IMG/VR virus record: IMGVR_UViG_3300036805_000137
Coordinates: 1-64,000 of that record
From: a virus
Taxonomy: Duplodnaviria > Caudoviricetes
Reading direction: 5' to 3' (one strand)
Length of the DNA stretch: 64,000 bases
This document shows, one piece after another, positions 19,387 to 58,228 of the stretch. Below the pieces are notes generated by a model, which was given only the letters and a program-made list of their open reading frames with translations, was not told where the DNA came from and ran no database searches. The position numbers and the translations under genes were made by a program. Every line of letters begins with the position of its first letter. Position 1 is the stretch's first letter.

Positions 19387-19390
19387 TGTT

Positions 19391-22352: not shown

Positions 22353-22449
22353 GCTACTACCTCCACTATTGCGATCGTATAAGTAACGTAGATGAGCAAC
22401 AACACCAAACAGTACCGTGCGCAGTGCATCGCGCTGATCCGGCCTAGCA

Positions 22450-23220: not shown

Positions 23221-23655
23221 TCACGGCACCCGGCGCAGATCTTTGGCATACTCCCAACTGCGTAGCGAGCGCCACTGGACGAACACTTTAAGCCCTAGAT
23301 GCGAGCCCGCTCCGTGGATATGTGCACCACGCTCTCTGTCTGCATCGGTCGGCTCGATCACCTGACCCGTATGCAGCGGACCCATCTGTCGAGCAACCAG
23401 CGTGCCGTAGGGGAAATCCTGAGACTGTTCGGCATCACTACACTCTGTTTCGTTGGGCTCATTAGCGCGCACCCAAGCGTGTACACGCTCAGCCTCTGCC
23501 CATACTTCCATGTAACGGGCACCCGGTGTTTCCTGCACGTACACCGCAACAGCCTCAATGTCCCGCCAGGGGATCTCCGTTCGCTCTTGGTGACTCATCC
23601 TAAACATCCTCAGCATCTCTTGACCTAGACCAGTTGGTCTCAGCCGGCGGATCAT
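23221..23655 (-). CDS. Hypothetical protein
   Basis: 144-aa ORF in the minus-strand block; GGAG RBS; start uncertain. Confidence 0.5.
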   Translation of the reverse strand: MIRRLRPTGLGQEMLRMFRMSHQERTEIPWRDIEAVAVYVQETPGARYMEVWAEAERVHAWVRANEPNETECSDAEQSQDFPYGTLVARQMGPLHTGQVIEPTDADRERGAHIHGAGSHLGLKVFVQWRSLRSWEYAKDLRRVP

Positions 23656-24037
23656 CAGTGCTGTTAGTTACTCCGTCACTAGCAATCCAGTCGGAAGCAT
23701 CACGATTTAGTTCTCGACTTTCAGCCAATCGATCAAAGATTCTCATCCTCTACTCTCCAAACCTTTGTGCTGGGTGGTGACGCCCGGTGCGCTATTCTGT
23801 CAAATGACGCACCGGGCATCTGCCGGGCTTACTCCTGCAGCAACTGGTCAAGCTCGACACCGGCTGCCTGCTCAACTTCCTCTGTGGTTGCACCCGAATC
23901 TTTCAGCTCAACCAGCCGCTCATATGCTGCGGTCCACGTACCCCCATGTCTTCACCTCCCCTTACCACTCGATGAGTTCACCGTCATATCCATCATCTTT
24001 CTTATCAGGATCAACCACTGTGTTTCACCTCCCCTCG

Positions 24038-24283
24038 CTAGGCACTGTTGCGGTGCCCGGTACGGACATTATGGCGGCTGGGAGATCCGTCTGGGTGGCC
24101 TCCCCAAATCCCGGCATCCTGGCCGGACGTGAGAGCCCACTCCAGACATGCCTGGCGCACCGGGCACCGCCGGCACACTGTCTTAGCTTCAGCGATCTGA
24201 GCAAGTGCTGGGCCAGAGGTACCGGCCGGGAAAAACAGCTCAGGATCCTCTGTCCGGCATTCTGCCTTGTGGCGCCAATCCAT
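24038..24283 (-). CDS. whiB: WhiB family transcription factor (WhiB1-like), atypical C-terminus
   Basis: W...A.C...DPELFFP...AK.VC..CPV...CL.WAL...GIWGG; all four Fe-S Cys present; GGAGG RBS. Confidence 0.93.
   Translation of the reverse strand: MDWRHKAECRTEDPELFFPAGTSGPALAQIAEAKTVCRRCPVRQACLEWALTSGQDAGIWGGHPDGSPSRHNVRTGHRNSA
24076..24100. repeat. Left copy of a 25-bp perfect inverted repeat
   Basis: GGCTGGGAGATCCGTCTGGGTGGCC is the exact reverse complement of 26554-26578. Confidence 0.9.
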
Positions 24284-24331
24284 GATCAGTACCTCCTTCC
24301 CTTTCTGCTCAGCTGAGGGGTGTCTCTTTGG

Positions 24332-24973
24332 TCAGCTGTTGCGGTTTGTCCGTCGTACGCGGTGCTCATGCAGCCACCCGCGGAGCCGATACCAAACCTT
24401 GCGACTCAATGACATATGAGAGTAGTTGATCTCCCAGAGCGCAGTGCTTACTTCCTCAACTGCGTCAACCAGCCGCTCCATCCGGTGATGAGTCTCAAAG
24501 GTCTGCTCAATGTCATGATCAGTTTTCAGGCTCATCACCTGGCGGATCCCGATAAGCTCGAAAATCAAAGCGTGGTCGGTGCACCGTAGGTTGCCGTCTG
24601 AACATTCGGTTATCCCGCGCTCATTACAGCCGTACTGAGTGGCGCTGTCGTCACTCCAGCCTTCCTGACAGCGATAGACACCGGCTGGCTGAGGCTGGCT
24701 CCAATCGATGGACTGAAACGATGCCAGCTCCGATACCAGCGGCTCCGACCAAACAGCACCACATTCCGGGCAGTCGTAATCCCGTCCGGGGGTAGCCTCT
24801 GTGCCTGCCATGAACTGCCGGTACTTGGCCTCACTGTCTACCATCGAATCAGCCATGCAGACCGGACACACCCGCGGGGTGCGCGTGGGTTCTGACAGCT
24901 GCGAGACGGCACTATTCCTGATCCGCTCTTGGATCCACTCGGGTAGCTCTGACCAAACATATTTTTCTGACAC
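24332..24973 (-). CDS. Hypothetical protein with CxxC pairs
   Basis: CPVC, CPEC and further Cys/His; AGGAG RBS before GTG 24973. Confidence 0.6.
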   Translation of the reverse strand: MSEKYVWSELPEWIQERIRNSAVSQLSEPTRTPRVCPVCMADSMVDSEAKYRQFMAGTEATPGRDYDCPECGAVWSEPLVSELASFQSIDWSQPQPAGVYRCQEGWSDDSATQYGCNERGITECSDGNLRCTDHALIFELIGIRQVMSLKTDHDIEQTFETHHRMERLVDAVEEVSTALWEINYSHMSLSRKVWYRLRGWLHEHRVRRTNRNS

Positions 24974-25014
24974 AGTGATCTCCTGTAACTGAGGCGAGTC
25001 TGATGATCGGATGG

Positions 25015-25188
25015 TTAACCGGTGTGGACTGGGCGCACCCGGCCGCACACGCGCTCTGGCATGTAATAGGGGTCGGTCTCCCACGTGACCAGCGCGATAT
25101 CAAGCAACCGCTCAATGGCCTGCTCGTGCGTATGGCCGGTAGCCGCTTGATACACCGCCACTCGGGCGGCCAGATCGTTACTGAGCAT
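25015..25188 (-). CDS. Small hypothetical protein (57 aa, below track cutoff)
   Basis: CAGGAG RBS, ATG 25188, MLSNDLAARVAVYQ... Confidence 0.45.
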   Translation of the reverse strand: MLSNDLAARVAVYQAATGHTHEQAIERLLDIALVTWETDPYYMPERVCGRVRPVHTG

Positions 25189-25209
25189 GGTGCCCTCCTG
25201 GCAGTTTGT

Positions 25210-25446
25210 CTAGCTGATGGGGGTATGCAGAGGTCGGTGTGAGTAGCGGGTCCATGCGCCATTGCCTACAGCCAGCGCCATGTGGTGAGTAACCAACCAC
25301 TGCAGGATGATGCGAGCCTCGTTAGTGCTGATGTTGGCCTTGCGTGCCAGTGCTGATGGTGTCCAGCTTGTCTCAGGTGTGGTATCCAAGATATTGCCGA
25401 TGACATCGGACAGCTCATACTGCGTGTCTGTCAGTTCCTCGCTCAT
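25210..25446 (-). CDS. Small winged-HTH-like protein
   Basis: WTPSALARKANISTNEARIILQWL; GGAGG RBS. Confidence 0.6.
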   Translation of the reverse strand: MSEELTDTQYELSDVIGNILDTTPETSWTPSALARKANISTNEARIILQWLVTHHMALAVGNGAWTRYSHRPLHTPIS

Positions 25447-25476
25447 CGGATGCCTCCCGGCTGGAATCATTGCTTG

Positions 25477-25518
25477 CCTGACACTGCTTACGCTACCGGC
25501 CGGCTCATACCATGTCAA
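25477..25518 (-). promoter_or_regulatory. SigA-like promoter
   Basis: TTGACA-17bp-TAGCGT followed by GTGTCAGG. Confidence 0.7.
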
Positions 25519-25554
25519 GAGATTTTGTAGGGTATGAGCTGGCCGGCGACCCTT

Positions 25555-26112
25555 TCAGCTGATGAGGTACTGGTCAGGGTTGATAACCTGCACCCGGTCA
25601 AGATCAATGTATCGGCGCTGGTTTTCTCCGGCTACCTCGACTACAGCGACCTTGGCGCCGTGGCGGTATTTGCTGGCCTCGATGCTACGGATGATGCCCA
25701 CTACGCCGGCATTCTTGCCGCGGGTGGTCAGCGAGCGGACCTCTTTACCGATAGCGGGCTCGCTGGACTTGATGCGCGCGAGCTTTACATCGGCAGCTGC
25801 CCGTTGGCGCGCGAGGTATTCTTGAGCCTTGGCCATGGTGTCAGCATCCGCATCTACCTTAGCGCCATTGTGGTAAGTCCAACCGCGAGTACTGGCATAC
25901 TCAATCTCGCGGACGCTCTGGCTCTGCTCATCCCAAACCAGCGCGTAAAAATCTGAGTCATCGTGCCAGTTATGCTCACCTGTGTAGATGACGCATCCCG
26001 TCCAGCTCTCGATGAGGTTGGGGCAGGGCTGGTAACTGTTGGCGACCTCGCTGGTGCACAGTTTGTTGCCGCTGTAGGTGCCTCCGCAGATGTGGATAGC
26101 CACTGCGCTCAT
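25555..26112 (-). CDS. Hypothetical protein with SH3-like C-terminus
   Basis: CAGGAG RBS; start trimmed from 26172. Confidence 0.6.
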   Translation of the reverse strand: MSAVAIHICGGTYSGNKLCTSEVANSYQPCPNLIESWTGCVIYTGEHNWHDDSDFYALVWDEQSQSVREIEYASTRGWTYHNGAKVDADADTMAKAQEYLARQRAAADVKLARIKSSEPAIGKEVRSLTTRGKNAGVVGIIRSIEASKYRHGAKVAVVEVAGENQRRYIDLDRVQVINPDQYLIS

Positions 26113-26140
26113 CTCCTGCTGGTCTGGGTGGTGTTGTCGT

Positions 26141-26182
26141 CCTGACACCACTGACATTACCGACCGGCTCATACCATGTCAA
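26141..26182 (-). promoter_or_regulatory. SigA-like promoter
   Basis: TTGACA-17bp-TAATGT followed by GTGTCAGG; near-identical to 25477-25518. Confidence 0.7.
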
Positions 26183-26203
26183 GGGTTTTTGCGTGGTGTG
26201 TTG

Positions 26204-26617
26204 CTATGCCCAGAGCACCGCGTAGTCCTGCTCAACACAGAACCGTGCCAGCGTCTCCAGCAGTTCGAGTTTTTCTTGCAGGTAACCCTCCCGGCGCGGG
26301 CCATGCCACACCGCGGCGCCACCACCACCAACCAGCATTGCCAGGGTCGGTGACAATTCCTCTGGTGTCATCTGGTAGGCAGGCATAGCCTCATCGCGGG
26401 GAGCTATTGCCAGCGCGAGCAAGACACACCCTAGAAAGTCGCCGGCAGGTGCATAGCCCACGCAGCCCTCCTCATCATCAAGAGGCAATCCCAGCACACC
26501 CAGCAGGCGAACTGCATTGGTGTTGGCAAGGTTGACCTCATGATGCCGGGCGTGGCCACCCAGACGGATCTCCCAGCCCTCAGCGGTGGCCTGGCCGGGG
26601 TAAAAGGTGACACACAT
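26204..26617 (-). CDS. Hypothetical protein
   Basis: GGGAGG RBS before ATG 26617; downstream of a promoter. Confidence 0.6.
   Translation of the reverse strand: MCVTFYPGQATAEGWEIRLGGHARHHEVNLANTNAVRLLGVLGLPLDDEEGCVGYAPAGDFLGCVLLALAIAPRDEAMPAYQMTPEELSPTLAMLVGGGGAAVWHGPRREGYLQEKLELLETLARFCVEQDYAVLWA
26554..26578. repeat. Right copy of the 25-bp perfect inverted repeat
   Basis: GGCCACCCAGACGGATCTCCCAGCC. Confidence 0.9.
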
Positions 26618-26651
26618 TGCGGGGCCTCCCCTGGTTGGTGTGTTACGAGCT

Positions 26652-26680
26652 ACGCTACCGGCCAGCCCGTACCATGTCAA
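26652..26680 (-). promoter_or_regulatory. SigA-like promoter
   Basis: TTGACA-17bp-TAGCGT. Confidence 0.7.
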
Positions 26681-26768
26681 GACATCTTGTGAGGTGAGGG
26701 CAAAGAAAATCCGGCCCGGGCATCGAGCACCCTGCAGCCGGATCTTCCTGCCACCCACTTAGACCACG

Positions 26769-27284
26769 TCACACGCCTGCTGGCTCAGGAATGGTGGCCT
26801 TGGTAGAGGTGGCCTTAGGTGCGGTGGCCTGCCCGTTGGTATCGGGGGCCGGCGCCTCCTGCACCGGGGATGCTGTGAGCAGTGCCTGCAGTGCCTGTAC
26901 TCCAGCGTCGCCGCCAAGGTTGTACGCATCGAGCACACCCAGAGGAATGCGTCCGCGGTCGCTCACAGGGTAGCCGTGGTTAGTGGCCCAAGCCCGGATT
27001 GCCGCATTCTGCTCACGGTCTGCCCGGGTAACCGCGCGGGCTGGCGCGGCGCCGCTGGCCGTCACCGTCCTGGGTCGCCCAACGCCACGAGCCGGGGCAC
27101 TAGTGGCCTTGCGGGCAGCTTCCACATACGGCGCCAGCGCGGTGCTGAGGCCACCAAAGTTGGTGTCCGTCAGATCGATCTCATACGTGGTGCCGTCCAG
27201 CTCGATGCTGTGCGTGGTCACGGGCGCGGCATCAGAGTGCTCAGTCTGGTCGAGGTCATCAAACCGTACAGTCTTGGTACCCAT
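26769..27284 (-). CDS. lsr2: Lsr2-like nucleoid-associated protein
   Basis: DDLD...LDGTTYEIDL...ALAPYVEAARK dimerisation domain; AIRAWA..HGYPVSDRGRIP AT-hook-like DNA-binding domain. Confidence 0.93.
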   Translation of the reverse strand: MGTKTVRFDDLDQTEHSDAAPVTTHSIELDGTTYEIDLTDTNFGGLSTALAPYVEAARKATSAPARGVGRPRTVTASGAAPARAVTRADREQNAAIRAWATNHGYPVSDRGRIPLGVLDAYNLGGDAGVQALQALLTASPVQEAPAPDTNGQATAPKATSTKATIPEPAGV

Positions 27285-27558
27285 AGATGGTTCCTCCTGC
27301 TATCGGATGGTCTGTTTTCACCGCGGGATGTTTGTGCGCGGCGCGCGCCCGCGACTATGGACCCGCTGATGGTTGTTTGTCAAATTGCTTGTGTACACGG
27401 TTGCGCTGGGCTGACTAGACTCAAGCGCGTCTGTCTGTGTGGATACGTTGCCTGACATCTCCGGTGTCCCTGGCAGACCGGCACGCGGTATTGGGTTGGT
27501 ACCGTCTGCCCGGCAGGCCTCGCACTTCCCCCCACAGTGAGCGCGAGGCCTGCCCCTA

Positions 27559-28002
27559 TTACTGGCCCTCGCTGCCGATGGCACTGTAAGACTCCACTGC
27601 GTGCGCGTACTTGTGCACGGTGGCCTTGGGCTTGCGCAGCTGGTGGGCTACCCACATCCACCGGTCAGACTCTGGTTGATCTCCCCGGTGCGCGTAATCA
27701 TTGAACATCAAGTGCAAGATCAGCGACCGCCAGAGCGGAATGTTGGCCAGCCACTCATCAATAACCGCCATGGCTGCCTTGCAGTCGGTTTGGTGCACGC
27801 CGGTCACCCGGTCACCCAGCACGGTAGCCAGCGCGTCTGCCGCGGTGATGCCCTCTGCGTATATCTGGTCAGCCTCGATGGTGTTAGCCGGCAGTGTGTC
27901 GTCAGTGATCGATGCCGGCGATGCCGGCGCGGGCGGCTGGGCAGCCGGTGTGGCAGGTCGGTAGGGCACCGGGCTGGCCGGTCGCCGTGGCGTAGGAGGC
28001 AT
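27559..28002 (-). CDS. Putative regulator with C-terminal HTH, divergent from the translocase
   Basis: WMWVAHQLRKPKATVHKY helix-turn-helix-like segment; GGAG RBS. Confidence 0.5.
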   Translation of the reverse strand: MPPTPRRPASPVPYRPATPAAQPPAPASPASITDDTLPANTIEADQIYAEGITAADALATVLGDRVTGVHQTDCKAAMAVIDEWLANIPLWRSLILHLMFNDYAHRGDQPESDRWMWVAHQLRKPKATVHKYAHAVESYSAIGSEGQ

Positions 28003-28098
28003 GTCGGTCTCCGCTCGTGATTTACAGTCTGGATTCACAGACGTGAATCATGGCTATAGACTACCGAGACACGTGCCCCCGACCCAACCGGATATGCC

Positions 28099-30126
28099 AT
28101 GACGCTCCGCAATGATCACTCATCCGAGTCATCCCGTGAGCTCGTGCCGATGCACGCGGCGCGGCAGTCGGGCGCAGCGGAGCCCTACATCCCTGGGTGG
28201 CTGCGCAAGGCTGAGGCACACACGTTGATCCTCGACAAGCACCGGCTCTGGGCAAGCATCCAATATGCAGTGGATCCCTGGTACAGGATCCCTAAGGCGA
28301 TCATCTACTGGGCTGGCCGGGGGATTTTCGGTGCGCTGGGCGAGATCCGCTACGTGTGGTCCGGCGGGCTGCGGGTCATCGATGGGCTTTACGCGTGGTC
28401 GATTGCGATCAACCACGAAAGAGCCGCCGCGGTGGCCGTGGGGACGACGCATGCCTACCGGGGTGCTGAACGTCACGTCAATGTGCGGTCCCGGCGTGGT
28501 GCGGTGCTCTGGGCAGCCCTGGGGGCGGTGTCCATTCTGGGCTTGTGGTTGGGGATCTACTACCCGTCCTACGGCGCGCTCGCCGGCATCGGGCTGGCCG
28601 CGCTGCTCGATGTGATCGGTCGCCAGGGGAAGCCCAAATCTGAGGCACCCCCGCACACCCCGGTACCGCTGAAAAATGGCATGCCCACCTCTGCTCTCAA
28701 GCGCGAGATAAAAATCTTCCTAGAGGAGGAAGGGCTAGACAATGCCATCACCGTAGCCACGGTGCGGTTTGCTCCGCAGCGCCACGCCTACTACATCGAT
28801 CTAGTCACCGCAATAGCGATCAAGCCTGAGCTGTTGCGCGCTCTCGAGAAACGCATCTACGCGCCAGACCGCGCCATCAGGATAGTGATTGATCCCGAAA
28901 ACGCAGCGCTGCAGACACTGGTGGTCTCTACAGGCAACCCGCTGGCGAATGTGCCGGAAGCTCCGTGGATCCCGGCAGGCACGGTGTCTGGTTGGGATCC
29001 GCTTGATCTGGGGCTGTCTATCGATCCCAGCTGCCCCTATGAGCTCGTGCTGGTGATGCGCAATGTTCTGTTGGTCAGCCGTACTCGTGGCGGGAAGTCC
29101 GTAACTCTGTCTACTGTCATTGACAGATTGTCGGCTACCAGTGATGTGGTTACCTGCGCAGGGGCATTGATCAAATCTTCAATTTTTGATGCCTGGCGTT
29201 CGGTAATCTACAAAAAAGCCGAGAATGTGAACCAACTGACTGAGTTGCTGGAATGGTTGATCGGGCAGATTCAGCAGCGTGACCGGATGCTCAAAGATAT
29301 CAACTCAGATGATGATCCCAGCAACGATGTTGACAAATGGAATCCCACACTGGGGCCAGCCATCGTGTGCGTCCTCGATGAATTCCCGTGGATCGCGAAA
29401 TATGATGGAACCAAAGTTCACCAAGACAGCAAGCCAAATCTGCTAGATATGGTCGAGACCATTATGCGGACCGGATCCGGGTTGGGGGTGTCACTGGTAT
29501 TGGCCTGCCAGGCATCCGGTAATGAGGATTGGGGATCATCGGTTATCTACAAGCAAGCCAACGTCAAAATTATCGGTCCGTGCACAGAGCGGGATACCGT
29601 AGATCTGCTCGGTAAAGACAAACGTGATCAGGGTTATGCACCACACCTACTGCAACCAGCGGATGAGCACAATATCAATGATGCCGGCATGGCGATTGTT
29701 GATGGCCCTGGTTTCGGTTCCGACTTTGTGCGCAGCTACTGGCCGTTCAAGGTTAAGGCGAGGGCGATCCGCCGGGAAGCTGAATGGGCACAGCAAGGTA
29801 ACCGCCCAATGCTGCCGATTGAGTCTCATACTGCCCCGGTAGGTTACATAGATGCCGAGGAAGTGCCGCCGGCTCTTACCGCGGTGGAAATGGCATTACG
29901 CCATTATGGTGCCTCTATCCTATCCAGCGCGCTGGTTGTGAAGTACGCCAATGAGCAAGGGGATAAGTGGACGCAGGTCTCGCTGGCAACAGCACTATCT
30001 AAAGAGTCTCCCACAGTGGTTGTGAAAGCTCACAGCGGTCGCTGCCAGGTCAATAAGAAACCGTTGCAGTGCTATCACCGGGAAGACGTTGCCGCGGCTA
30101 TCAAAGCACTGGAGAGCTCGCCGTGA
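28099..30126 (+). CDS. FtsK/SpoIIIE-family DNA translocase (TraB-like)
   Basis: N-terminal TM pair; Walker A SRTRGGKS; Walker B VCVLDEF; GVSLVLACQ motif; C-terminal small domain. Confidence 0.8.
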   Translation: MTLRNDHSSESSRELVPMHAARQSGAAEPYIPGWLRKAEAHTLILDKHRLWASIQYAVDPWYRIPKAIIYWAGRGIFGALGEIRYVWSGGLRVIDGLYAWSIAINHERAAAVAVGTTHAYRGAERHVNVRSRRGAVLWAALGAVSILGLWLGIYYPSYGALAGIGLAALLDVIGRQGKPKSEAPPHTPVPLKNGMPTSALKREIKIFLEEEGLDNAITVATVRFAPQRHAYYIDLVTAIAIKPELLRALEKRIYAPDRAIRIVIDPENAALQTLVVSTGNPLANVPEAPWIPAGTVSGWDPLDLGLSIDPSCPYELVLVMRNVLLVSRTRGGKSVTLSTVIDRLSATSDVVTCAGALIKSSIFDAWRSVIYKKAENVNQLTELLEWLIGQIQQRDRMLKDINSDDDPSNDVDKWNPTLGPAIVCVLDEFPWIAKYDGTKVHQDSKPNLLDMVETIMRTGSGLGVSLVLACQASGNEDWGSSVIYKQANVKIIGPCTERDTVDLLGKDKRDQGYAPHLLQPADEHNINDAGMAIVDGPGFGSDFVRSYWPFKVKARAIRREAEWAQQGNRPMLPIESHTAPVGYIDAEEVPPALTAVEMALRHYGASILSSALVVKYANEQGDKWTQVSLATALSKESPTVVVKAHSGRCQVNKKPLQCYHREDVAAAIKALESSP

Positions 30127-49770: not shown

Positions 49771-50276
49771 CCATCTCGGTTGAGGATATCGTAGTGATAG
49801 GAGTCGACCCTGGCCCGCGCCCTGGCATTGTCGGTTTGCGCTACTCACCGCAACGGGTGCGGACCGCGGCGCCGGCCATTATTCAGTGCACACTCAACGT
49901 CGCGCTAGCATGTATCCAGGCCATTATCCCGGCAGATGTCAAGCGCATCTATTTGTCCTATGAGCCTTTCGTGATAGGTGCACGATCGGCCAAGGTGAGC
50001 ACGCCGGCTGCCAGCGCTGCTACCGCGCGGTTCTGTGGAGCTCTGCAGACGCTGGCCTACAGCGACAACCGCATCGTGCTGCGCCACCACCAAGCGTCCG
50101 CGGTCAAGCCCTGGGGCATGGAGGAACGCCTAGAGCGCGCCGGGCTGCACATGCTGGTCAAGGGCATGACTCACGCCCGTGACGGGGCCAAGCAGGCGCT
50201 GTACTGCGCCACCCACGATGCCGGCGTGCCTGATCCATTGAGCAAGCGGCACAAGCTAGCGGAGGTGGCCCCGTGA
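49767..50276 (+). CDS. RuvC-like Holliday junction resolvase
   Basis: VVIGVDPG, YEPF, VK.W, HARDGAKQAL; GGGAGG RBS. Confidence 0.75.
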   Translation: MTISVEDIVVIGVDPGPRPGIVGLRYSPQRVRTAAPAIIQCTLNVALACIQAIIPADVKRIYLSYEPFVIGARSAKVSTPAASAATARFCGALQTLAYSDNRIVLRHHQASAVKPWGMEERLERAGLHMLVKGMTHARDGAKQALYCATHDAGVPDPLSKRHKLAEVAP

Positions 50277-50743
50277 TGCCGCTGTGCGGGGGTATGGGTG
50301 CTGAGCATCCCCGACCAGCCAGCCCGCAGCGAGCGATGAGCCCGGCACATCTCGTGGCGTATTTCCACCAGTGGGCCTATGACGAACATTTCGGGGAAGG
50401 CACCGGGGATTGCAGTCTGCGCATCAATTTGCACAACAGCGAGCATGCCGAGCTCATCGAGGCACTAGAGTCTGATGCCCCGGGAGGTACCGGTGTGGTC
50501 GATTGGTTGACCGCAGTAGCGCACGAGCTGGCCGATGTGGTGTGGGTGGCCTATGGCACGGCGCACAGTCTAGGTATCCCGCTGGATCAGGTGCTACGGG
50601 CATTGTACCGATCACTGCTCACGCGCACCAATGCTGATGGCAGTCCCGCGCTGCGTGAGGACAACAAAGTCACCAAGGGTGTCAACTACCGTCCACCCAC
50701 AGAAGATATCCGAGCAATCATAGAAAGGGCCACACAATCATGA
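50273..50743 (+). CDS. MazG-like / PRA-PH-like nucleotide pyrophosphohydrolase
   Basis: INLHNSEHAEL, HELADVVWVAYG, REDNKVTKG.NY.PP. Confidence 0.75.
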   Translation: MMPLCGGMGAEHPRPASPQRAMSPAHLVAYFHQWAYDEHFGEGTGDCSLRINLHNSEHAELIEALESDAPGGTGVVDWLTAVAHELADVVWVAYGTAHSLGIPLDQVLRALYRSLLTRTNADGSPALREDNKVTKGVNYRPPTEDIRAIIERATQS

Positions 50744-51141
50744 GCTATTTCACCGCCACCCAGCAAGACATCTCAGAGGCTGTCAAAAAAGCCATTGAGA
50801 GCACGCGAGGTCACTACCTGGCTGATCTGACTATAGAAGCGTATGAGGTGGCCGTCTCGAAAGGATGGGAGGAAGACGCACACACCCGCACCTTTGGTGA
50901 TGAGGTTGCGCTGATTCACACAGAGGCCAGCGAGGCATTCGAGGCATACCGCAAACGAGGATTCGAGGCATGGGAAGGGAAAGACGGCAAGCCTGAGGGT
51001 GTCGGGTCAGAATTCGCGGACGTGTTTATCCGACTCCTGCACTACTGCTACGTGCACGGCATCGATCTGCAAGCCGAATACGACCGAAAGACAGCGTACA
51101 ACCGCACCCGTGAGTACCGGCATGGGGGCAAAAGACTATGA
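50740..51141 (+). CDS. MazG-like NTP pyrophosphohydrolase
   Basis: ALIHTEASEAFEAYRK, SEFADVFIRLL, K.AYN.TR.YRHGGK. Confidence 0.85.
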   Translation: MSYFTATQQDISEAVKKAIESTRGHYLADLTIEAYEVAVSKGWEEDAHTRTFGDEVALIHTEASEAFEAYRKRGFEAWEGKDGKPEGVGSEFADVFIRLLHYCYVHGIDLQAEYDRKTAYNRTREYRHGGKRL

Positions 51142-51785
51142 CGTGCATCAGCTCTTGGGAAGCATTCCCTGATCGGGATCAACTACCGGACTATCCATTG
51201 ACAGAAGACGAACGCGTAGCCCTATCCAATCAAACCCAAGACGCAACCAATGCGGAGCACAGTATGACTCCCGAAACCACTAACCCAAACGCCATCTACT
51301 ACCTCGCTGGCCCGATGGCGGGATACCCTGATCACAATCACCCGGCATTCCATAAGGCTGCCGCTACGTTGCGGGCATGCGGTCACGTTGTGGTCAATCC
51401 AGCTGAGTACGGCAATCTCATCATGCTGGGTTGGCAAGGCGCGATGAAACGTGACCTGCACGCAATGTTGTGGTGTGACGCGCTGGTGATGCTGCCAGGC
51501 TGGGAAAAATCCAGAGGTGCCCGGCTGGAAACCCGTACAGCCTGGGATCTCGAAATGCCCATCTACTCACTCGATGTCATGCTCTGCGACTGCATCCGGC
51601 CGCATGTGGGCGCGATGGTGTGGCACACCGAATCCTGCCTGGCGCGGCGCGTACCGATCAGCACCATTCCCGCTGATGACCTGACCACCGTGGCGATGTA
51701 CGCGCGGACCTATGCCGATGGCGAGCCGCACGCTGCCGCCGGCCGGGTGCTGCAGGGTCTGGGCAAATTGGTGTCACCGCTATGA
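51138..51785 (+). CDS. DUF4406 (nucleoside deoxyribosyltransferase-like) protein
   Basis: YYLAGPMAG, NHPAF, VVNPAE, CDALVMLPGWEKSRGARLE. Confidence 0.8.
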   Translation: MTCISSWEAFPDRDQLPDYPLTEDERVALSNQTQDATNAEHSMTPETTNPNAIYYLAGPMAGYPDHNHPAFHKAAATLRACGHVVVNPAEYGNLIMLGWQGAMKRDLHAMLWCDALVMLPGWEKSRGARLETRTAWDLEMPIYSLDVMLCDCIRPHVGAMVWHTESCLARRVPISTIPADDLTTVAMYARTYADGEPHAAAGRVLQGLGKLVSPL

Positions 51786-52331: not shown

Positions 52332-52709
52332 GTGGTTAGAATGCAGTCACACGTGCCAGGACAGGTATACCTTTTGCATTTCACGGTTCCCTACGTGGCA
52401 ATCCAGCATCCAGGCAAAAAATACCAGTGTGCAAAGCATTACCTGGGCTGGTCGAAAGATCTCATCGCCCGGCTGGCTGCGCACAAGAATGGCAATGGCT
52501 CGCGATTGGTGCAGGTAATCAACGATGCTGGTATCGAATGGGAGCTGGCCCGGGTGTGGAATGGTGACCGTTTCCTCGAGAGACAATTAAAGAAACGTGG
52601 TGGACGTAGCCGGATCTGTCCTATCTGCCAGGGCACCGGAATAGCCCTGCAGTGGGAGACATATAACACAACCGCAGCATTACTAACCGGGATAAGTGTG
52701 GGTGCATAA
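52332..52709 (+). CDS. GIY-YIG-like nuclease
   Basis: VYLLHF...HYLGWS..L..RL..H..G.G...E..LK...CPIC. Confidence 0.7.
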   Translation: MVRMQSHVPGQVYLLHFTVPYVAIQHPGKKYQCAKHYLGWSKDLIARLAAHKNGNGSRLVQVINDAGIEWELARVWNGDRFLERQLKKRGGRSRICPICQGTGIALQWETYNTTAALLTGISVGA

Positions 52710-55700
52710 TGGCTTACGGTGGATATGCATCATTCTATGTGATAGCTGGCTGGCGGTGTGTACTGCCGGTGCCGGTCCGGTCGAAGACACCGCCACCTAC
52801 CGGCTACACGGGTGATCACGGTACCGATGTGGTAGCGCCTGAGGTGTTGGCGAAATGGGAGCGAGCTCACGCGGATGACTCGATCGCATTGCGGCTGCCG
52901 GCCGGCGTGATCTGTATCGATATTGATCATTACGATAAGCCCAAGGTGTTGCCCGATGGCACGGTCACCGTAGTGGCCAAGCGGGGCAATGACACCATTG
53001 CCGAATATGAGGCCAAGTGGGGACCGCTGCCGCCCACCTGGGCGAGCACCGCGCGGGGGGATCCCAACACGGGCGCCGGCCCTTCCCGAACGTTGTTTTA
53101 CCGGGTGCCGCCCGGGCGTTATGCCACCACCCTGGGCGACCCGCGCAACGGCGCGGTGGAAATCCTGCAGCGCCACCACCGCTACTGCGTGGTGTGGCCT
53201 TCGATCAACCCGGACGCCAACAATGCGCAGTACTACTGGTACGGGCCTGGGGATCTGGGCGAGCAACGGCCACCGTGGATCGATGAGCTGACGCTACTGC
53301 CCAACGCCTGGGTGATCGGGCTCGCAGAAGGCGCCAGCGCGGCCAGCGCGCCCGCGGCACCCATGGCCGAGGGCGCGGCGCTGCTCGCGGCTCTGCTCGA
53401 TGATGACCGGCCGCCGTGCGCGGACATCACCAACATTGCCCTGACCGCGGCTGATGAGCTTGACCACGCGGCGGCGGGCAGCCGTCATGACATCGCCACC
53501 GGTCGGATCTTCCAGCTGATCCGAGCGGCTGCGTTCGGCCACCCGGGCGCGGGCGAGGTGCTGGCCGACCTGCGCACCCGCTGGGATGCCCTGACCGCGG
53601 GCGAGCACCGGGCCGATGAATTCGAGCGGATGGCCAGCTCCGCGGCGTGCAAGGCAGTAACCGAGGTCAGCGCCACCGGCTGCCCGGTGCCCGTGGCCTA
53701 TGACCCGTGCCTCATGGGTACCGTCGTTGCGCCACCGGTCCCGGGCCGACCTAGCCACACCACCGGCCCCGATGGTGAGCTCGATGACGCCAGTGATGCC
53801 GATGTGCTCGATATCCCCGCGCCGGCACCGCCCATCATCTGGTCTAGGCGAGCGCTGATCGGCACTGGTGCCTTCGACCCCCGCGGGCATCTTGATCAGG
53901 TGCTCGCTGCCCAAGCACTAGAGCGGATCCAACCGGTGCTGCGGTTCGCCACCGATGTGGGCGCGTGGGCGGTCCGTGGCCCGTACTCCTGGGATATGGC
54001 GCCCGGCGATATGGCCGACTGGGCACTGACGGAACTGTTCGACCTGATGCCCCACGGCGACCCGGACTCAGAATCCACTGAGGCACAGGACCGCGCGGCG
54101 CGGCGCAAACGGTTTGGGCAAAACAGCGGGTCAGCGGGGATAGCGAGCAAACTGCGGGCACTGGTGCGGGCCTCTGGCGCATCGAGCACGGTCCGGCTGT
54201 CCGACCTCGATGCCGATCCCGAGATTATGTGGGCCGGGCGGCTGCCGTGGGCGCTGCGCAGCTGCATCGAGCGTCCCGCGCTAGCCAACCTGCCTGCTGA
54301 CACCCCGCACCTGCACTCAGCCGGCGTGGCGCCCTCTGGGCTGGGTATCGAGCACCCTACACCGGCCTGGGATGCGTTCTTGGCCGCGGTGTGGCCGGAT
54401 CCGGCTATCCGACAGTGGGCGCTGCACGTGGTCTCTGTAGCCCTGACCGGCTACTCAGACGCAGTGATGCCCCTGCTCTGGGGGGAGACCGGCCGCGGGA
54501 AGACAGCGTTTACCGCGCTGGTGATGTCCGTGCTGGGCAGCTATGCCATCGCGGCTGATCCCCGGCTGTTGACCAGCGCGGCCGACAACGCGCATGCCTC
54601 GATCATCTACGCGCTGCGGGGGGTCCGGCTGGCCTTCATCGATGAGGGGCCACGGGATGCCAAGTGGGCGGTGTCCAAGCTCAAGCAGCTCACCGGGGGA
54701 GCTCGCCTGACCGGCAACCCGATGCGCGGCAACCCGGTGAACTTCGACCCCTCGCACACCCTGATGCTGACCTGCAACCCTGAGGAGACACCGGGTTTTC
54801 AAGACAAGGCGTTGCGGCGCCGGCTGCGGTTGATCCCGTGCGAGGGCGAGCCTGACGCGGTCGGCCGGGCGCGGGCTGCGATCACCCCGGCGATCTGGCG
54901 GGCAGAGGCACCGGGCGTGCTGGCCAAGCTGATGCACGCCACTGCTCGATGGCTCGATGACCCGGGTGTGGCTGCGCAGTGGAGTGCACCTGAGGCGATC
55001 CGGTTTCGCGCGGAAGACATCGCCAATGAGGAAGATCAGATCAGGCAGTGGATCGATGCCGAGATGGAGCCATGCGATCACGGCACCCGGGTCAGCGACC
55101 TGCTCATCTGGTTTATCGACTGGCTGCGCAAGGTCGCACCCCGGGCCAACCCTCCCAGCGCTACGCTGTTCGGCCGCAAACTGACTGAGCTGGGCTACCT
55201 GGCACTGCACCAGCGGGACGGCAAACACCGCCCATTGCGGCGCCGGCAGACCAACTACGGGCCTGACGTGCCCCCACCAAGCGCGCCTGGGCCGGGCCAA
55301 CCGATCCATGCACCACTGCCACCCATGCCCCCGCTCACAGTGATCCAGTACGACCAGCGCAACGCCGCACCCAGATCAACAGGCCCCTCCGCAGATGCGG
55401 CACCGACTACGGCGCCTGACGGGGGTAGCGCGCGCAGCTCTGACAACCCCGGCGACCTGCCCACACCCCCGACTGAAACGATCATGAGTAGCGGGGCGGT
55501 AGTTCCGCGCGAGCCTACCCCCGTTGCTGAAACGGAGCCGCAAACACGGAATTGTGCACAAGCAAACGAAACCGCATCTGCTGACCCCCGTTCCCCTGGT
55601 AGTGACCGCATCTGCGAAAAATTAGGCCAAACGGATGGTGATGGTGACCTCGCTGCGAGCGCTGAGCTTGATCGCAGACACGAACAGAGCAGCAAACGAT

Positions 55701-58228
55701 CTTCACAAGATCAAACGAGTGAAATGTCCGATTCACCTACTCCGTGTACTAAGCAATCAACTTCACCCGCCGTTCACCCTCCTGTGACCGAAACGAGACC
55801 TGATCTTGTGACGGGTTCAAACCCGTCACACAACCCGTCACAAACCCGTCACAAGATCAACATTCCTCCTACCAGTAGTAATACTCTTATTTTTGATCTA
55901 TGTGACGGGTTGACGGGTTTTTCTAGCTATGGAGCTGTCATAAAAAATGAAGATCAATCTTCCTTAATGATCTCTGGGCAAATATATGGGGATATACCCG
56001 AGGTAACCCGTCACCCGTCACAGTCGATCATTTCAGAGGGGGTGACCTCGCGAAACGACTGTGACGGGTCATTTTCCCAACCAGTCACAGAGCCCGCGGC
56101 CAGCCCGGCGCCGGTCGTGACCTGCGAGCCGCTAGCCCAAATGGATGAGGCCAGCGCTACGGCGCGGCTAGTCGAGCTGCGAGCCCAGCGCACCCAGCTC
56201 AATAGGTTGATCAAGAAAACTAACGGGGCAGATCCCCTGCACGGCGTGTACACGTACACGGTGGGCCAGCTGGCCGGCGAGATCAAGCAAGTCGAGGTGA
56301 TGATCCGAGGCCACCGCGCGGCGACCAAGCGAGCGGCAGCGGTAGCGGAAGCCGGCGGTGATCTCCTAGAGCTCCCAGCGATCAAACTGCGGGGCCAGCC
56401 GGCCCGCTCGTGCTCCGTGGATGAGGCTGCCGCTGCGGTGCGAGCCACCATGGCAGCCCGGGCTGGCCGCGTGACGGCCGATATCGAATCCAACGCCTAC
56501 CCGATCGGGCACCCGGACTACGGCGTGCGCACGCTGCAGCTGGGCGATGCGCTCACCGGCACGGACTGGGATGTCACTGACCCGGTGCAGTTCGCCGTGT
56601 GCACCTTGCTCCTGAGCGAGGCAACCGAGATCGAGGCCTACTCCGCATCAGTCGAGATATCCAACCTGGCCTACATCGGCATGATCGATTACCGCAGCGG
56701 CTGGGCGCGAGCTCGCGATGTAGTGATCCAAGCCCAGTTGAACAACCCAGTGGGCACGCTGAGCTCGGACAGCGGCCTAAAACCGCAAGCGGAGCTGCAC
56801 CTGCCGGATCCGGCCAGCCCGGCAGCCGATGCGCGCCGCGCCGCGCTGTTCAAAGCGGGCGGCTGGATCACTGACACCAAGATCAAAAACGCCGGCGGTA
56901 GTGAGGGTGGCGGCTGGGTAGCCCGCGAGCGCTCTGGTTGGGCCAACGCCGACCCCCGGTACCGCACCAGCATTGACTATGCCGTCTCTGACATCCATGA
57001 CACAGCTGCGCTGGGTGAGGCCCTACCGATGCCGGCGCCAGGCGTCTACGCGCGGGAGGTGGCCGTACAGGCGGCTGTAGGGGCAGTTTCCTACGTGGGC
57101 ATCGCGCTCGATCGCAGCCATATCGAGGCCAAGATCGCAGAGCACTCGCCAATGCGCCGCGCCGCTGCGGAGGAACTGGCCGCGATGGGCATCACCAACC
57201 CGGGCAGCAACGATCAGATAGCCGCGGTGTTGATGGCTCACGGCGCCCGGCTGCCCCGGGGGGAAAAATCAGGCAAGCCCGGCGTAGCAGCGGGTGTGCT
57301 GGAAAAACTACCGCGCAATCAGGGTGAGCAATTTACACCCATTGTGGAAGCGATACTACGATTTCGGCATCATCAGCGGATCCTGTCCACCTACCTGCGA
57401 CCCTATTACCTGCTGTGCACCCATGGGGATGGACGGATGCGCAGCACCGTGTACACGCTGCAGGCTGATACCGGCCGCATGTCCTGTGTCCACGAGAATC
57501 TGACCAACATCCCGCGCATCGGCGGAATTCGAGAATCTTATGTCACTGACCCGGGGGATCTGTTCGTAGATGCTGACCTTTCCGGGGTAGAGGTGGCCGT
57601 ACTCGCCGCGCTATCACAGGATCCGGTATTGCTTGAGCTGGTTGCCTCTGGTCGGAAACTGCACAAAATCATTGCTGAAATGGTCTACGGAGCTGGTTAC
57701 TCAGGCGAGGAATACACCTACGTCAAAAATGGTGTGTTCGCCAAACTCTACGGCGCGGGCATCGCGCGCATTGCCGATACGGTCGGTTGCACTGAGCGGG
57801 AAGCTCAGATGATGGTGGATGCGCTCGATGAGCTAGCCCCGCACACCAAGCGATGGGGTTATGATCTGCGCAATAAGGCCAAGGCAGGCATGCAGCGGGT
57901 GCAATTGTATTCCGGCCGGGTGCTGCACCTGCCGTCCGCGACTCCGCACAAGATAGTGAATTACTATGTCCAAGGTACCGCGCGTGAGCTCTTGGTTGAC
58001 GGGTTGCTGAGATGGCGCCAGACAAAGTGGGGCGACTACGGCATCATTGTGCCCGTGCATGATGAGATCCTGGCCACCGTGCCCGCGGTAGAGGCTGACG
58101 AGGCCATGGCTGCGTTGGGCCAGTGCATGGCCTCAGAGCTCTACGGCGTGCGCATCGGCGCCGAACCCAAGTGGATCAATCCCTCTGACCGCTGGCTGTC
58201 CAATGACCACCCACTAGCGAAAGGCTAA
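52709..58228 (+). CDS. Fused primase-polymerase / SF3 helicase / 3'-5' exonuclease / family A DNA polymerase
   Basis: AEP IDID; Walker A GETGRGKT, Walker B AFIDEG, motif C LMLTCN; Exo DIE and YAVSD; TGRMS..NLTNIP, DLSGVE, K...F...YG, VHDE. Confidence 0.88.
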   Translation: MAYGGYASFYVIAGWRCVLPVPVRSKTPPPTGYTGDHGTDVVAPEVLAKWERAHADDSIALRLPAGVICIDIDHYDKPKVLPDGTVTVVAKRGNDTIAEYEAKWGPLPPTWASTARGDPNTGAGPSRTLFYRVPPGRYATTLGDPRNGAVEILQRHHRYCVVWPSINPDANNAQYYWYGPGDLGEQRPPWIDELTLLPNAWVIGLAEGASAASAPAAPMAEGAALLAALLDDDRPPCADITNIALTAADELDHAAAGSRHDIATGRIFQLIRAAAFGHPGAGEVLADLRTRWDALTAGEHRADEFERMASSAACKAVTEVSATGCPVPVAYDPCLMGTVVAPPVPGRPSHTTGPDGELDDASDADVLDIPAPAPPIIWSRRALIGTGAFDPRGHLDQVLAAQALERIQPVLRFATDVGAWAVRGPYSWDMAPGDMADWALTELFDLMPHGDPDSESTEAQDRAARRKRFGQNSGSAGIASKLRALVRASGASSTVRLSDLDADPEIMWAGRLPWALRSCIERPALANLPADTPHLHSAGVAPSGLGIEHPTPAWDAFLAAVWPDPAIRQWALHVVSVALTGYSDAVMPLLWGETGRGKTAFTALVMSVLGSYAIAADPRLLTSAADNAHASIIYALRGVRLAFIDEGPRDAKWAVSKLKQLTGGARLTGNPMRGNPVNFDPSHTLMLTCNPEETPGFQDKALRRRLRLIPCEGEPDAVGRARAAITPAIWRAEAPGVLAKLMHATARWLDDPGVAAQWSAPEAIRFRAEDIANEEDQIRQWIDAEMEPCDHGTRVSDLLIWFIDWLRKVAPRANPPSATLFGRKLTELGYLALHQRDGKHRPLRRRQTNYGPDVPPPSAPGPGQPIHAPLPPMPPLTVIQYDQRNAAPRSTGPSADAAPTTAPDGGSARSSDNPGDLPTPPTETIMSSGAVVPREPTPVAETEPQTRNCAQANETASADPRSPGSDRICEKLGQTDGDGDLAASAELDRRHEQSSKRSSQDQTSEMSDSPTPCTKQSTSPAVHPPVTETRPDLVTGSNPSHNPSQTRHKINIPPTSSNTLIFDLCDGLTGFSSYGAVIKNEDQSSLMISGQIYGDIPEVTRHPSQSIISEGVTSRNDCDGSFSQPVTEPAASPAPVVTCEPLAQMDEASATARLVELRAQRTQLNRLIKKTNGADPLHGVYTYTVGQLAGEIKQVEVMIRGHRAATKRAAAVAEAGGDLLELPAIKLRGQPARSCSVDEAAAAVRATMAARAGRVTADIESNAYPIGHPDYGVRTLQLGDALTGTDWDVTDPVQFAVCTLLLSEATEIEAYSASVEISNLAYIGMIDYRSGWARARDVVIQAQLNNPVGTLSSDSGLKPQAELHLPDPASPAADARRAALFKAGGWITDTKIKNAGGSEGGGWVARERSGWANADPRYRTSIDYAVSDIHDTAALGEALPMPAPGVYAREVAVQAAVGAVSYVGIALDRSHIEAKIAEHSPMRRAAAEELAAMGITNPGSNDQIAAVLMAHGARLPRGEKSGKPGVAAGVLEKLPRNQGEQFTPIVEAILRFRHHQRILSTYLRPYYLLCTHGDGRMRSTVYTLQADTGRMSCVHENLTNIPRIGGIRESYVTDPGDLFVDADLSGVEVAVLAALSQDPVLLELVASGRKLHKIIAEMVYGAGYSGEEYTYVKNGVFAKLYGAGIARIADTVGCTEREAQMMVDALDELAPHTKRWGYDLRNKAKAGMQRVQLYSGRVLHLPSATPHKIVNYYVQGTARELLVDGLLRWRQTKWGDYGIIVPVHDEILATVPAVEADEAMAALGQCMASELYGVRIGAEPKWINPSDRWLSNDHPLAKG
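55801..56089. repeat. Iteron array and AT-rich core, candidate replication origin inside the replicase gene
   Basis: ACCCGTCACA exact at 55807(-), 55821, 55833, 55844, 55901(-), 56013, 56060(-); 8-mers at 55911(-) and 56006; 1-mismatch copy at 56080; 17-bp IR 55801-55817/55843-55859. Confidence 0.8.

What the first reader, a model, noticed from the sequence alone, without database searches (positions are those of the whole stretch)
52709..58228. Whole replisome in one 1839-aa polypeptide: AEP primase + SF3 helicase + exonuclease + PolA
Seen: a single uninterrupted frame with motifs of all four activities in order (AEP ~52.7-53.3 kb, D5-like helicase ~53.9-55.2 kb, exonuclease ~56.5-57.0 kb, PolA ~57.05-58.2 kb). 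Established: prim-pol/helicase fusions and stand-alone PolA are each common in phages. Inference: the four-activity fusion is uncommon and could be a self-sufficient replicase of biotechnological interest. I cannot confirm novelty without a search.
Basis: partly seen in the sequence, partly recalled or inferred. Interest (0 to 1): 0.78.

Follow-up and report, generated by a model that had tools for sequence, protein, structure and literature searches.

The report
One-gene phage replicase with built-in origin
An 82-kb phage of high-GC Gram-positive bacteria encodes primase, helicase, origin-binding domain, proofreading exonuclease and DNA polymerase in one real 1839-residue protein. The DNA coding for its flexible linker appears to be the phage's own replication origin, so the design is compact but a variant of known kinds.

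Summary
Window 52709-58228 (+) is one open frame of 1839 codons. It carries an AEP Prim-Pol domain, a D5-type SF3 helicase, a DEDD 3'-5' exonuclease and a family A polymerase.

The fusion is not an assembly artefact:
- Seven close and more than 50 distant relatives keep the frame open.
- Over 38 loci, 7,400 linker codons hold 0 in-frame stops, against 227 and 317 in the other two frames.

It is not rare. More than 200 protein clusters, at least 45 IMG/VR contigs and 13 Actinomycetota genomes carry it, but none of 50,697 cultured-phage records does. Analogous primase-helicase-polymerase fusions were described in 2016 (phiAsp2 Pas55, phage 1706 gp55).

The linker proved the most informative part:
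- All 8 exact copies of the 9-nt iteron core in the 82-kb genome lie in 55808-56069, flanking AT-rich stretches.
- Every relative has such an array at the same place, with lineage-specific iteron variants.
- A winged-helix domain just upstream is most similar in fold to the phage P4 origin-binding domain.
- Two of its wing residues co-vary with iteron bases (9 of 9 independent pairs).

The linker DNA is therefore most likely the replication origin, read in frame. The scan has noted the same design on other DNA (e1-4822834). I class it as a new variant of a known kind.

The parts
52709..58228 (+). Whole fused replicase gene, 1839 codons plus stop
   Evidence: Single open frame. Homologues of 1550-2150 aa carry the same domain order.
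52733..53251 (+). AEP Prim-Pol domain (aa 9-181)
   Evidence: PF09250, E 7e-16, 59 bits against a cut-off of 22.8. Motif I D71/D73, E151 and the following His pair are conserved. The motif II His is not evident.
53906..55018 (+). D5_N-like region plus SF3 (D5/P4-type) helicase core (aa ~400-770)
   Evidence: phrog_1156 and phrog_2478. DUF5906 at aa 590-704. D5_N is found on homologues. Walker A G592-T599, Walker B D645/E646 and N690 are invariant. The AF2 model of the core was poor.
55031..55258 (+). Winged-helix domain, putative origin-binding domain (aa ~775-850); wing residues R836 and K839
   Evidence: AF2 pLDDT 78-90. The best of 48,161 PDB chains is 1KA8, the phage P4 origin-binding domain: Z 8.7, rmsd 3.1, 78 residues. 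RFX DNA-binding domains follow. The wing residues co-vary with iteron bases.
55259..56428 (+). Low-complexity linker (aa 851-1240), open in frame
   Evidence: 0 stops in frame against 19 and 27 in the other frames. GC3 falls from about 0.8 to about 0.4 at aa 930-1110. No Pfam family matches.
55801..56089 (.). Iteron array, putative replication origin: 10 copies of AACCCGTCACA (0-2 mismatches) in both orientations
   Evidence: All 8 exact 9-mers of the window and of the whole 82-kb genome lie here, against 0.67 expected. The array is conserved in register in relatives of 72-94% identity, while the flanking linker diverges.
55854..55900 (.). AT-rich stretch 1 between iteron groups (GC 0.32)
   Evidence: It is among the lowest-GC 80-nt stretches of the window.
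55920..56004 (.). AT-rich stretch 2 between inverted double iterons (GC 0.38), candidate unwinding element
   Evidence: GATC density peaks here: 9 per 400 nt against a window mean of 2.6.
56441..57028 (+). DEDD 3'-5' exonuclease domain (aa ~1245-1440)
   Evidence: Exo I D1258/E1260, Exo II acidic residue E1315 (D in the 1570-aa clade), Exo III Y1424/D1428. AF2 pLDDT 84. Foldseek hits are ExnV1, the phage G20c Pol I exonuclease, phiVC8 DpoZ and T7 DNA polymerase. PF01612 is found on homologues.
57065..58201 (+). Family A DNA polymerase domain (aa ~1453-1831)
   Evidence: PF00476, E 9e-41. Taq and Klenow matches at E 1e-24 to 1e-19. Motif A D1623, motif B K1673/F1677/Y1681/G1682 and motif C H1784-D1785-E1786 are invariant.

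Best explanation
The ORF is a genuine single gene for a modular phage replicase.

Domain order:
1. AEP primase-polymerase.
2. D5/P4-type SF3 helicase.
3. P4-alpha-like winged-helix origin-binding domain.
4. A disordered linker of about 390 residues.
5. DEDD proofreading exonuclease.
6. Family A polymerase.

The DNA that codes for the middle of the linker (55801-56089) is the phage's replication origin. It holds ten iterons in both orientations around two AT-rich stretches.

Proposed mechanism (inferred):
- The winged helix of the protein binds the iterons encoded a few hundred bases downstream in its own gene.
- The SF3 module assembles there and melts the AT-rich core.
- The AEP domain primes.
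- The tethered exo-PolA module extends.

What is shown and what is inferred:
- Shown computationally: the domains, the selected open frame, the conserved iteron array, the fold of the binding domain, and the co-variation between wing residues and iteron bases.
- Inferred: binding, unwinding, priming activity, and whether the chain stays intact.
For: 1. The fusion is real and selected.
- Seven close relatives (49-94% identity) and 46 of 48 IMG/VR loci have no stop across the junction.
- In 38 loci the linker has 0 in-frame stops in 7,400 codons, against 227 and 317 in the other frames.

2. The catalytic residues of the helicase, exonuclease and polymerase are invariant in 20 relatives. The exonuclease fold is confirmed.

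3. Iterons in the window.
- All 8 exact copies of the 9-mer in the window (expected 0.67), and in the whole 82-kb genome, lie in 55808-56069.
- They flank stretches of GC 0.32-0.38 in a gene of GC 0.64.

4. Evolution at the DNA level.
- In the ori core, substitutions fall equally on the three codon positions (12/21/14; 3 synonymous against 23 non-synonymous).
- In the enzyme modules the split is 18/10/101.
- The core is better conserved than the flanking linker in diverged relatives.

5. Family-wide pattern.
- Every full-length locus examined in Actinomycetota genomes has 6-11 iterons at the same place with the same layout. The iteron sequence differs by lineage.
- In 35 of 48 IMG/VR loci the most clustered 8-mer of the whole locus lies in the linker.

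6. The domain just upstream folds as a winged helix. Its best match among 48,161 PDB chains is the phage P4 origin-binding domain (Z 8.7), followed by RFX DNA-binding domains.

7. Co-variation on a tree built from the exo-PolA part alone.
- The last iteron base changed at least 11 times.
- In 9 of 9 independent pairs, wing residue 3 changed with it (sign test p 0.004).
- Last base C goes with R/K/N/S in 26 of 26 loci, G with E in 8 of 10, and T with M in 3 of 4.
- The central dinucleotide GT goes with K in 22 of 25 loci, and TC or TT with N in 11 of 12.
Against: - There is no experimental evidence for replication from this site, for DNA binding, or for any of the four activities.
- The AEP motif II histidine is not evident, so primase competence is uncertain.
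- The AF2 model of the helicase core was poor. The winged-helix match has only a moderate Z (8.7, with the next unrelated fold at 6.5).
- The winged helix and the iterons lie less than 1 kb apart and are co-inherited. Co-variation could therefore partly reflect linkage, although closely related domains differ by point changes only.
- A natural split form (L041) shows that the covalent link is dispensable.
- GC skew gives no origin signal.
Confidence: 0.78

Rival explanations
1. The ORF is real, but the working enzymes are two chains: primase-helicase-OBD and exo-PolA. They would arise by proteolysis in the disordered linker, by internal initiation, or by initiator bound at the iterons blocking transcription. 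The fusion would then be a way of expressing the two parts, not a tethered replisome.
For: - The linker is about 390 residues of low complexity with no amino-acid-level constraint in its core.
- A relative of 61-66% identity (L041/L042, seen in two runs) has a stop after the winged helix, an AT-rich intergenic origin-like region, and a ribosome-binding site with ATG for the polymerase.
- The apicoplast PREX is referred to as a polyprotein (PMC10201439).
- A hexameric SF3 ring of fused chains would carry six polymerases, which is an odd stoichiometry (inference).
Against: - The frame is kept open in 38 of 38 tested loci through 7,400 linker codons. Strong selection of this kind would be needless if the halves were simply made separately.
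- No ribosome-binding site with an in-frame start is evident before the exonuclease domain, and there is no internal promoter-like or terminator-like site.
Confidence: 0.2
2. The iteron array is bound by the protein's winged helix, but it is not the origin. It could be an autoregulatory operator or roadblock inside the gene, a second cis site like P4 crr, or a partition or packaging site.
For: - Iteron-like repeats serve such roles in other replicons (established knowledge).
- P4 alpha binds both ori and crr.
- No functional data exist here.
Against: - The array combines inverted and direct iterons at about one helical turn (11-13 nt) with AT-rich cores. It sits next to the helicase-OBD gene part in every family member, whether a 40-kb prophage-like element or an 82-96-kb phage.
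- No other copy of the iteron exists in the genome, so there is no separate origin carrying the same sites.
Confidence: 0.12
3. The long ORF is an artefact: a sequencing or assembly error hides a stop or frameshift between two ordinary adjacent genes, as found in cultured actinophages.
For: - Cultured Microbacterium, Arthrobacter and Streptomyces phages have primase/helicase and Pol I as adjacent separate genes.
- The window comes from a metagenome assembly.
Against: - Independent assemblies from different samples, and isolate genomes (Micromonospora, Kribbella, Nocardioides, Labedaea), all show the same uninterrupted frame.
- The window's linker has 19 and 27 stops in the other two frames and none in frame.
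Confidence: 0.02

Closest known systems
Phage P4 gp-alpha (primase, SF3 helicase, C-terminal origin-binding winged helix)
   Same: Both have a D5/P4-type SF3 helicase followed by an RFX-like winged helix. The best structural match of the window's domain is 1KA8, the P4 origin-binding domain. In P4 that domain recognises short iterons (established knowledge). Both are initiator, helicase and primase in one chain.
   Different: The P4 primase is of the DnaG/Toprim type, whereas this one is an AEP Prim-Pol. P4 alpha has no polymerase. The P4 ori and crr lie outside the alpha gene. Sequence identity of the winged helix is only 19%.
Actinoplanes phage phiAsp2 Pas55 (primase + SF3 helicase + PolA in one chain; Kazlauskas et al. 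2016, PMC4889955)
   Same: One polypeptide with primase, helicase and a C-terminal family A polymerase, in a phage of Actinomycetota. This is the same kind of design, already published.
   Different: Only the PolA part is homologous (29% identity over 258 residues). The N-terminus is DUF3854/Toprim-like, not AEP. I found no iteron cluster in its linker.
Lactococcus phage 1706 gp55 and Rhodococcus phage relatives (AEP + SF3 + PolB)
   Same: An AEP primase and an SF3 helicase fused to the replicative polymerase (PMC4889955).
   Different: The polymerase is family B, not family A. Not compared by sequence here.
Apicoplast PREX (Toprim primase, helicase, exonuclease, PolA polyprotein)
   Same: The same four activities in the same order in one translation product (PMC10201439). 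The PolA domains are recognisably related (5DKU, E 1e-13).
   Different: Toprim primase and a T7 gp4-like helicase in place of AEP and SF3. It is eukaryotic and organellar. No embedded origin is known.
Lambda O gene with ori-lambda inside it
   Same: The origin (iterons plus an AT-rich region) lies inside the initiator's own gene and is translated in frame (PMC6022878 abstract; the rest is established knowledge).
   Different: O is only an initiator and recruits the host helicase and polymerase. There is no homology.
Separate primase/helicase and DNA Pol I genes of cultured Microbacterium, Arthrobacter and Streptomyces phages
   Same: The same gene order and homologous modules (24-29% identity).
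   Different: These are two or more genes, sometimes with small ORFs or an HNH or endonuclease VII gene between them. No iteron cluster was seen at the junction in Floof, Sycamore or Tallboi.

Membership tests
AEP Prim-Pol (PF09250) | Profile match above the curated cut-off | tested here: met
   59.4 bits against a cut-off of 22.8, aa 9-181.
AEP Prim-Pol (PF09250) | Catalytic motifs I (DxD), II (sxH) and III (acidic residue) | tested here: inconclusive
   Motif I D71/D73 is conserved. An acidic residue, E151, and a conserved His pair follow. No His is evident at the usual motif II place in any of 20 relatives. No solved relative was found by sequence.
SF3 helicase, D5/P4 type | Walker A, Walker B, motif C Asn and an arginine finger in a D5-like profile | tested here: met
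   G592-K598-T599, D645/E646, N690 and R703-R707 are invariant. DUF5906 scores 28.0 against 27.6, which is marginal. D5_N is found on homologues. phrog_1156 matches at E 6e-88.
SF3 helicase, D5/P4 type | AAA+-like core fold, hexamer | tested here: inconclusive
   AF2 pLDDT is 30-50 for the core. There is only a weak match to the ASFV PrimPol hexamer (Z 6.5).
P4-alpha/RFX-type winged-helix origin-binding domain | Winged-helix fold C-terminal to the helicase | tested here: met
   pLDDT 78-90. 1KA8 is top of 48,161 chains at Z 8.7, with RFX domains at 8.2 and 8.0 and the next fold at 6.5. The Z score is moderate.
P4-alpha/RFX-type winged-helix origin-binding domain | Sequence-specific binding to origin iterons | not testable with these tools
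   Indirect support only: wing residues co-vary with iteron bases in 9 of 9 independent pairs, p 0.004.
DEDD 3'-5' exonuclease of family A polymerases | Exo I, II and III acidic residues and the DnaQ-like fold | tested here: met
   D1258, E1260, E1315 (D in most relatives), Y1424 and D1428. The fold matches phage PolA exonuclease domains at E 7e-5 to 1e-3. The window's own sequence alone does not reach PF01612, but homologues do.
Family A DNA polymerase (PF00476) | Profile match and motifs A, B and C | tested here: met
   140.5 bits against a cut-off of 34.3. D1623, K1673/Y1681/G1682 and H1784-D1785-E1786 are invariant. Taq and Klenow match.
Iteron-type replication origin | Clustered repeats in excess of chance next to an AT-rich stretch | tested here: met
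   8 exact copies in 262 nt against 0.67 expected in 64 kb. The AT-rich cores have GC 0.32-0.38.
Iteron-type replication origin | Conservation of the array, and co-evolution with the initiator, across relatives | tested here: met
Iteron-type replication origin | Initiation of replication at the site | not testable with these tools
   Needs ori cloning, 2D gels or marker-frequency analysis.

The most novel reading that the evidence does not exclude
The gene is a complete one-gene replicon. It encodes initiator, helicase, primase and proofreading polymerase, and it also contains the origin they act on. Together with host SSB, ligase and similar factors, this single ORF would make any circular DNA that carries it replicate. 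Two wing residues of the winged helix (positions 836 and 839) would set which iteron variant is recognised. The family would then be a natural set of mutually orthogonal, re-programmable replicons.
Probability: 0.3. Interest if true: 0.85.

Novelty: new variant of a known kind. Interest (0 to 1): 0.6.

Why it matters
If the reading holds, this family is the most compact self-specifying DNA replication module described for bacteria. One gene would supply origin recognition, unwinding, priming, proofreading synthesis and the origin itself.

Practical uses:
- It would be a candidate minimal replicon for Actinomycetota, which are important antibiotic producers with few vectors.
- It would suit in vitro self-replicating DNA systems.
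- The simple correspondence between wing residues and iteron bases is a directly testable recognition code for making orthogonal replicons.

Evolutionary interest: fused and split forms coexist with the origin always at the junction. This shows how an intergenic origin can be absorbed into a reading frame without losing function.

Annotation: hundreds of database entries named only 'DNA polymerase' or 'P4 family primase' could be given a fuller name.

Tried and rejected
- Near-identical DNA search of the ORF against cultured phages gave no match.
- The first viral-contig scan, with the single protein, found nothing. The scan with the alignment worked.
- P0122/L043 looked like a split polymerase. 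It is only a contig-end truncation, because the frame is open to the contig start and the iterons are present.
- Searches of solved structures by sequence with the AEP region, the exonuclease region and an exonuclease profile found nothing useful. The exonuclease domain was confirmed by fold instead.
- Pfam scans of the window's exonuclease region, the region between primase and helicase, the winged helix and the linker, each taken alone, gave no significant family.
- The AF2 model of the helicase core was of low confidence.
- The palindrome CCGCAnnTGCG upstream of the array is not more frequent than chance in the window: 3 found against 1.85 expected.
- No iteron cluster was found at the primase/polymerase junction of the cultured phages Floof, Sycamore and Tallboi, nor in the linker of phiAsp2 Pas55. 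The method was crude, so absence is not proven.
- GC skew gives no origin signal.
- The scan for internal promoter-like or terminator-like sites inside the ORF found none.
The table was then derived automatically from the data.
- Literature searches found no paper on this AEP-SF3-PolA family or on its embedded origin. The library is incomplete, so this is not proof of absence.
Full report
**Observation**

The window is the first 64 kb of an 82,450-bp IMG/VR virus record with direct terminal repeats, rated complete. Positions 52709-58228 on the + strand are one open frame of 1839 codons.

- Prim-Pol (PF09250) at aa 9-181.
- DUF5906, the SF3 core, at aa 590-704.
- DNA_pol_A at aa 1486-1810.
- PHROG families: 'DNA primase' over aa 3-832 and 'DNA polymerase' over aa 1242-1821.

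The exonuclease does not reach PF01612 with the window's sequence alone. Three lines of evidence support it all the same:
- Homologues reach PF01612 at the aligned place.
- The Exo I and Exo III residues are invariant, and the Exo II acidic residue is E here and D in most relatives.
- An AlphaFold model (pLDDT 84) matches the exonuclease domains of phage family A polymerases.

The polymerase aligns to Taq and Klenow and keeps motifs A, B and C. The helicase keeps Walker A, Walker B, motif C and the arginine cluster.

One reservation concerns the AEP domain. Motif I (D71, D73) and an acidic residue with a conserved His pair are present, but the usual motif II histidine is not evident in any relative.

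**Is the fusion real?**

Yes.
- A protein search returned more than 200 clusters of fused homologues of 1011-3219 residues.
- Six contigs of a close clade (49-94% identity, 81-96-kb phage-like contigs) have the same uninterrupted gene.
- Thirteen of 14 full-length loci in Actinomycetota genomes and MAGs are uninterrupted. These include Micromonospora, Kribbella, Nocardioides, Labedaea, Jatrophihabitans and a Mycobacterium MAG.
- So are 46 of 48 IMG/VR loci.
- In 38 loci the linker alone has 0 in-frame stops in 7,400 codons, against 227 and 317 in the other two frames. In the window the figures are 0 against 19 and 27.

An assembly error or a chance open frame is excluded.

**Is it rare or new?**

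No cultured phage among 50,697 records has it. The nearest cultured phages, of Microbacterium, Arthrobacter and Streptomyces, carry homologous primase/helicase and Pol I as adjacent separate genes at 24-29% identity.

As a kind, however, it is already described:
- Kazlauskas et al. 2016 report two cases of helicase, primase and polymerase in one polypeptide. These are phage 1706 gp55 (AEP, SF3, PolB) and Actinoplanes phage phiAsp2 Pas55 (SF3, DnaG-type primase, PolA) (PMC4889955).
- Pas55 shares only its PolA part with the window's protein (29% identity) and has a Toprim-like N-terminus. It is an analogue, not a member of the same family.
- Czernecki et al. 2023 list AEP fusions to another PolA subfamily, and the apicoplast PREX polyprotein (PMC10201439).
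- I found no paper on the present AEP-SF3-PolA family.
- The scan itself has noted the same design on other DNA (e1-4822834, e1-5700453).

**The linker**

Between aa 930 and 1110 the third-position GC falls from about 0.8 to about 0.4, and total GC falls to 0.42.

This stretch holds ten copies of an 11-nt repeat, AACCCGTCACA, with 0-2 mismatches and in both orientations:
- One reverse copy followed by three forward copies, spaced 11-13 nt apart.
- Two inverted double copies.
- Two outliers.

These flank stretches of GC 0.32 and 0.38.

All 8 exact copies of the 9-nt core in the window (0.67 expected), and in the whole 82-kb genome, lie in 55808-56069. GATC is densest here in the whole window, partly because it belongs to an extended form of the repeat.

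The repeat is read in different codon phases in different copies, so the constraint is on the DNA. Substitution patterns agree. Against four relatives, changes in the enzyme modules fall mostly on third positions (for example 18/10/101). In the repeat core they fall equally on all three positions (12/21/14; 3 synonymous against 23 non-synonymous changes). In the more diverged relatives the core is nevertheless better conserved than the flanking linker.

**Family-wide test**

Every full-length locus from bacterial genomes has 6-11 repeats at the same place in the gene, with the same layout and a local GC minimum. The repeat sequence differs by lineage in its central two bases and its last base. 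In 35 of 48 IMG/VR loci the most clustered 8-mer of the entire locus lies in the linker.

One relative (L041/L042, seen in two runs) is split. It has a stop after the winged helix, then an AT-rich intergenic region with its own repeats, then a ribosome-binding site and start for the polymerase. The origin-like element therefore always sits at the helicase-polymerase junction, whether or not it is translated.

**Who binds the repeats?**

The last 75 residues or so before the linker (aa ~775-850) fold with good confidence as a winged helix. Among 48,161 PDB chains the best match is the origin-binding domain of phage P4 alpha (1KA8; Z 8.7, rmsd 3.1, 78 residues). Two RFX DNA-binding domains follow, and the next fold scores 6.5.

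I derived the repeat consensus and the eight wing residues automatically for 40 loci, and built a tree from the exo-PolA part only.
- The last repeat base changed at least 11 times on this tree.
- In 9 of 9 phylogenetically independent pairs, wing residue 3 (R836 in the window) changed with it (sign test p 0.004).
- Last base C goes with R, K, N or S in 26 of 26 loci, G with E in 8 of 10, and T with M in 3 of 4.
- Wing residue 6 (K839) tracks the central dinucleotide. GT goes with K in 22 of 25 loci, TC or TT with N in 11 of 12, and TG with H in 2 of 3. Across five independent pairs this gives p 0.06.
- Both residues lie in the beta-hairpin wing of the model.
- Closely related domains differ at these positions by point changes, which argues against simple module swapping. 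Physical linkage of domain and repeats remains a caveat.

**Interpretation**

The gene encodes an initiator-helicase-primase of the P4-alpha/D5 type, joined through a disordered tether to a proofreading family A polymerase. The tether's coding DNA is most probably the origin that the protein's own winged helix recognises. Lambda's origin inside gene O is the classical parallel (PMC6022878).

Binding, unwinding, priming and the integrity of the chain in vivo are all inferred.

The neighbouring genes fit a replication module: an SF2 helicase, an HNH endonuclease, two MazG-like pyrophosphatases and a nucleoside deoxyribosyltransferase-like gene.

**Verdict**

The embedded, co-evolving origin makes it a notable new variant of known kinds. 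Interest 0.6.

Noticed in passing
L003:3001-8706 (protein P0004), linker-left region: One close relative (79% identity) carries an Endonuclease_7 (PF02945) domain inserted in frame in the linker, upstream of the iteron array. Other relatives carry HNH_3 (P0074). In L005 a separate endonuclease VII gene follows the replicase.
   Followed up: partly
L041:1891-5685 and L041:11561-13879: The split relative has a LAGLIDADG (intein-like) insertion of about 640 residues in its helicase part. A second LAGLIDADG hit lies in a nearby SF2 helicase gene.
   Followed up: no
L015 and L017 (same 101,680-bp Nocardioides MAG contig, 17149-29972 and 64097-76920): Two identical copies of the fused gene lie about 47 kb apart on one contig. 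This is probably a concatemer, or an assembly of a circular element of about 47 kb.
   Followed up: no
L020:4001-8735 (Actinophytocola sp.): This genomic copy has 4 stops inside the match, although its iteron array is intact. It is probably a decaying prophage copy.
   Followed up: no
L070-L094 (IMG/VR loci): About 15 loci match the query only from residue ~370 onward. They have helicase, exonuclease and PolA without the AEP domain of this family, so a different N-terminal module may be fused there. Several still have linker iterons (for example L070, L074, L090, L091).
   Followed up: no
window 53400-53720 (aa ~230-340): The region between primase and helicase has invariant C237, H260, H278 and C334 in 20 relatives. 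This may be a metal-binding motif. No Pfam family matches it.
   Followed up: no
window 55389-55616: Copies of the palindrome CCGCAnnTGCG lie upstream of the iteron array and recur in relatives (alignment A1). They are not above chance in the window (3 against 1.85 expected).
   Followed up: partly
window 55651-56050; L002:1314-2633; L041:1-491: GATC density is highest in the origin-like region (9 per 400 nt). Relatives encode an N6/N4 DNA methyltransferase just upstream of the replicase, so methylation control of the origin is possible.
   Followed up: no
L024:6845-7348: In one Nocardioides MAG the exonuclease region aligns poorly with the family and shows a classical HN..FD Exo II motif. The exonuclease module may have been replaced.
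   Followed up: no
window 50273-51785: Two MazG-like pyrophosphatases and a nucleoside 2-deoxyribosyltransferase-like gene lie directly upstream of the replicase (PHROG hits). The same set is conserved in relatives L002-L007.
   Followed up: partly
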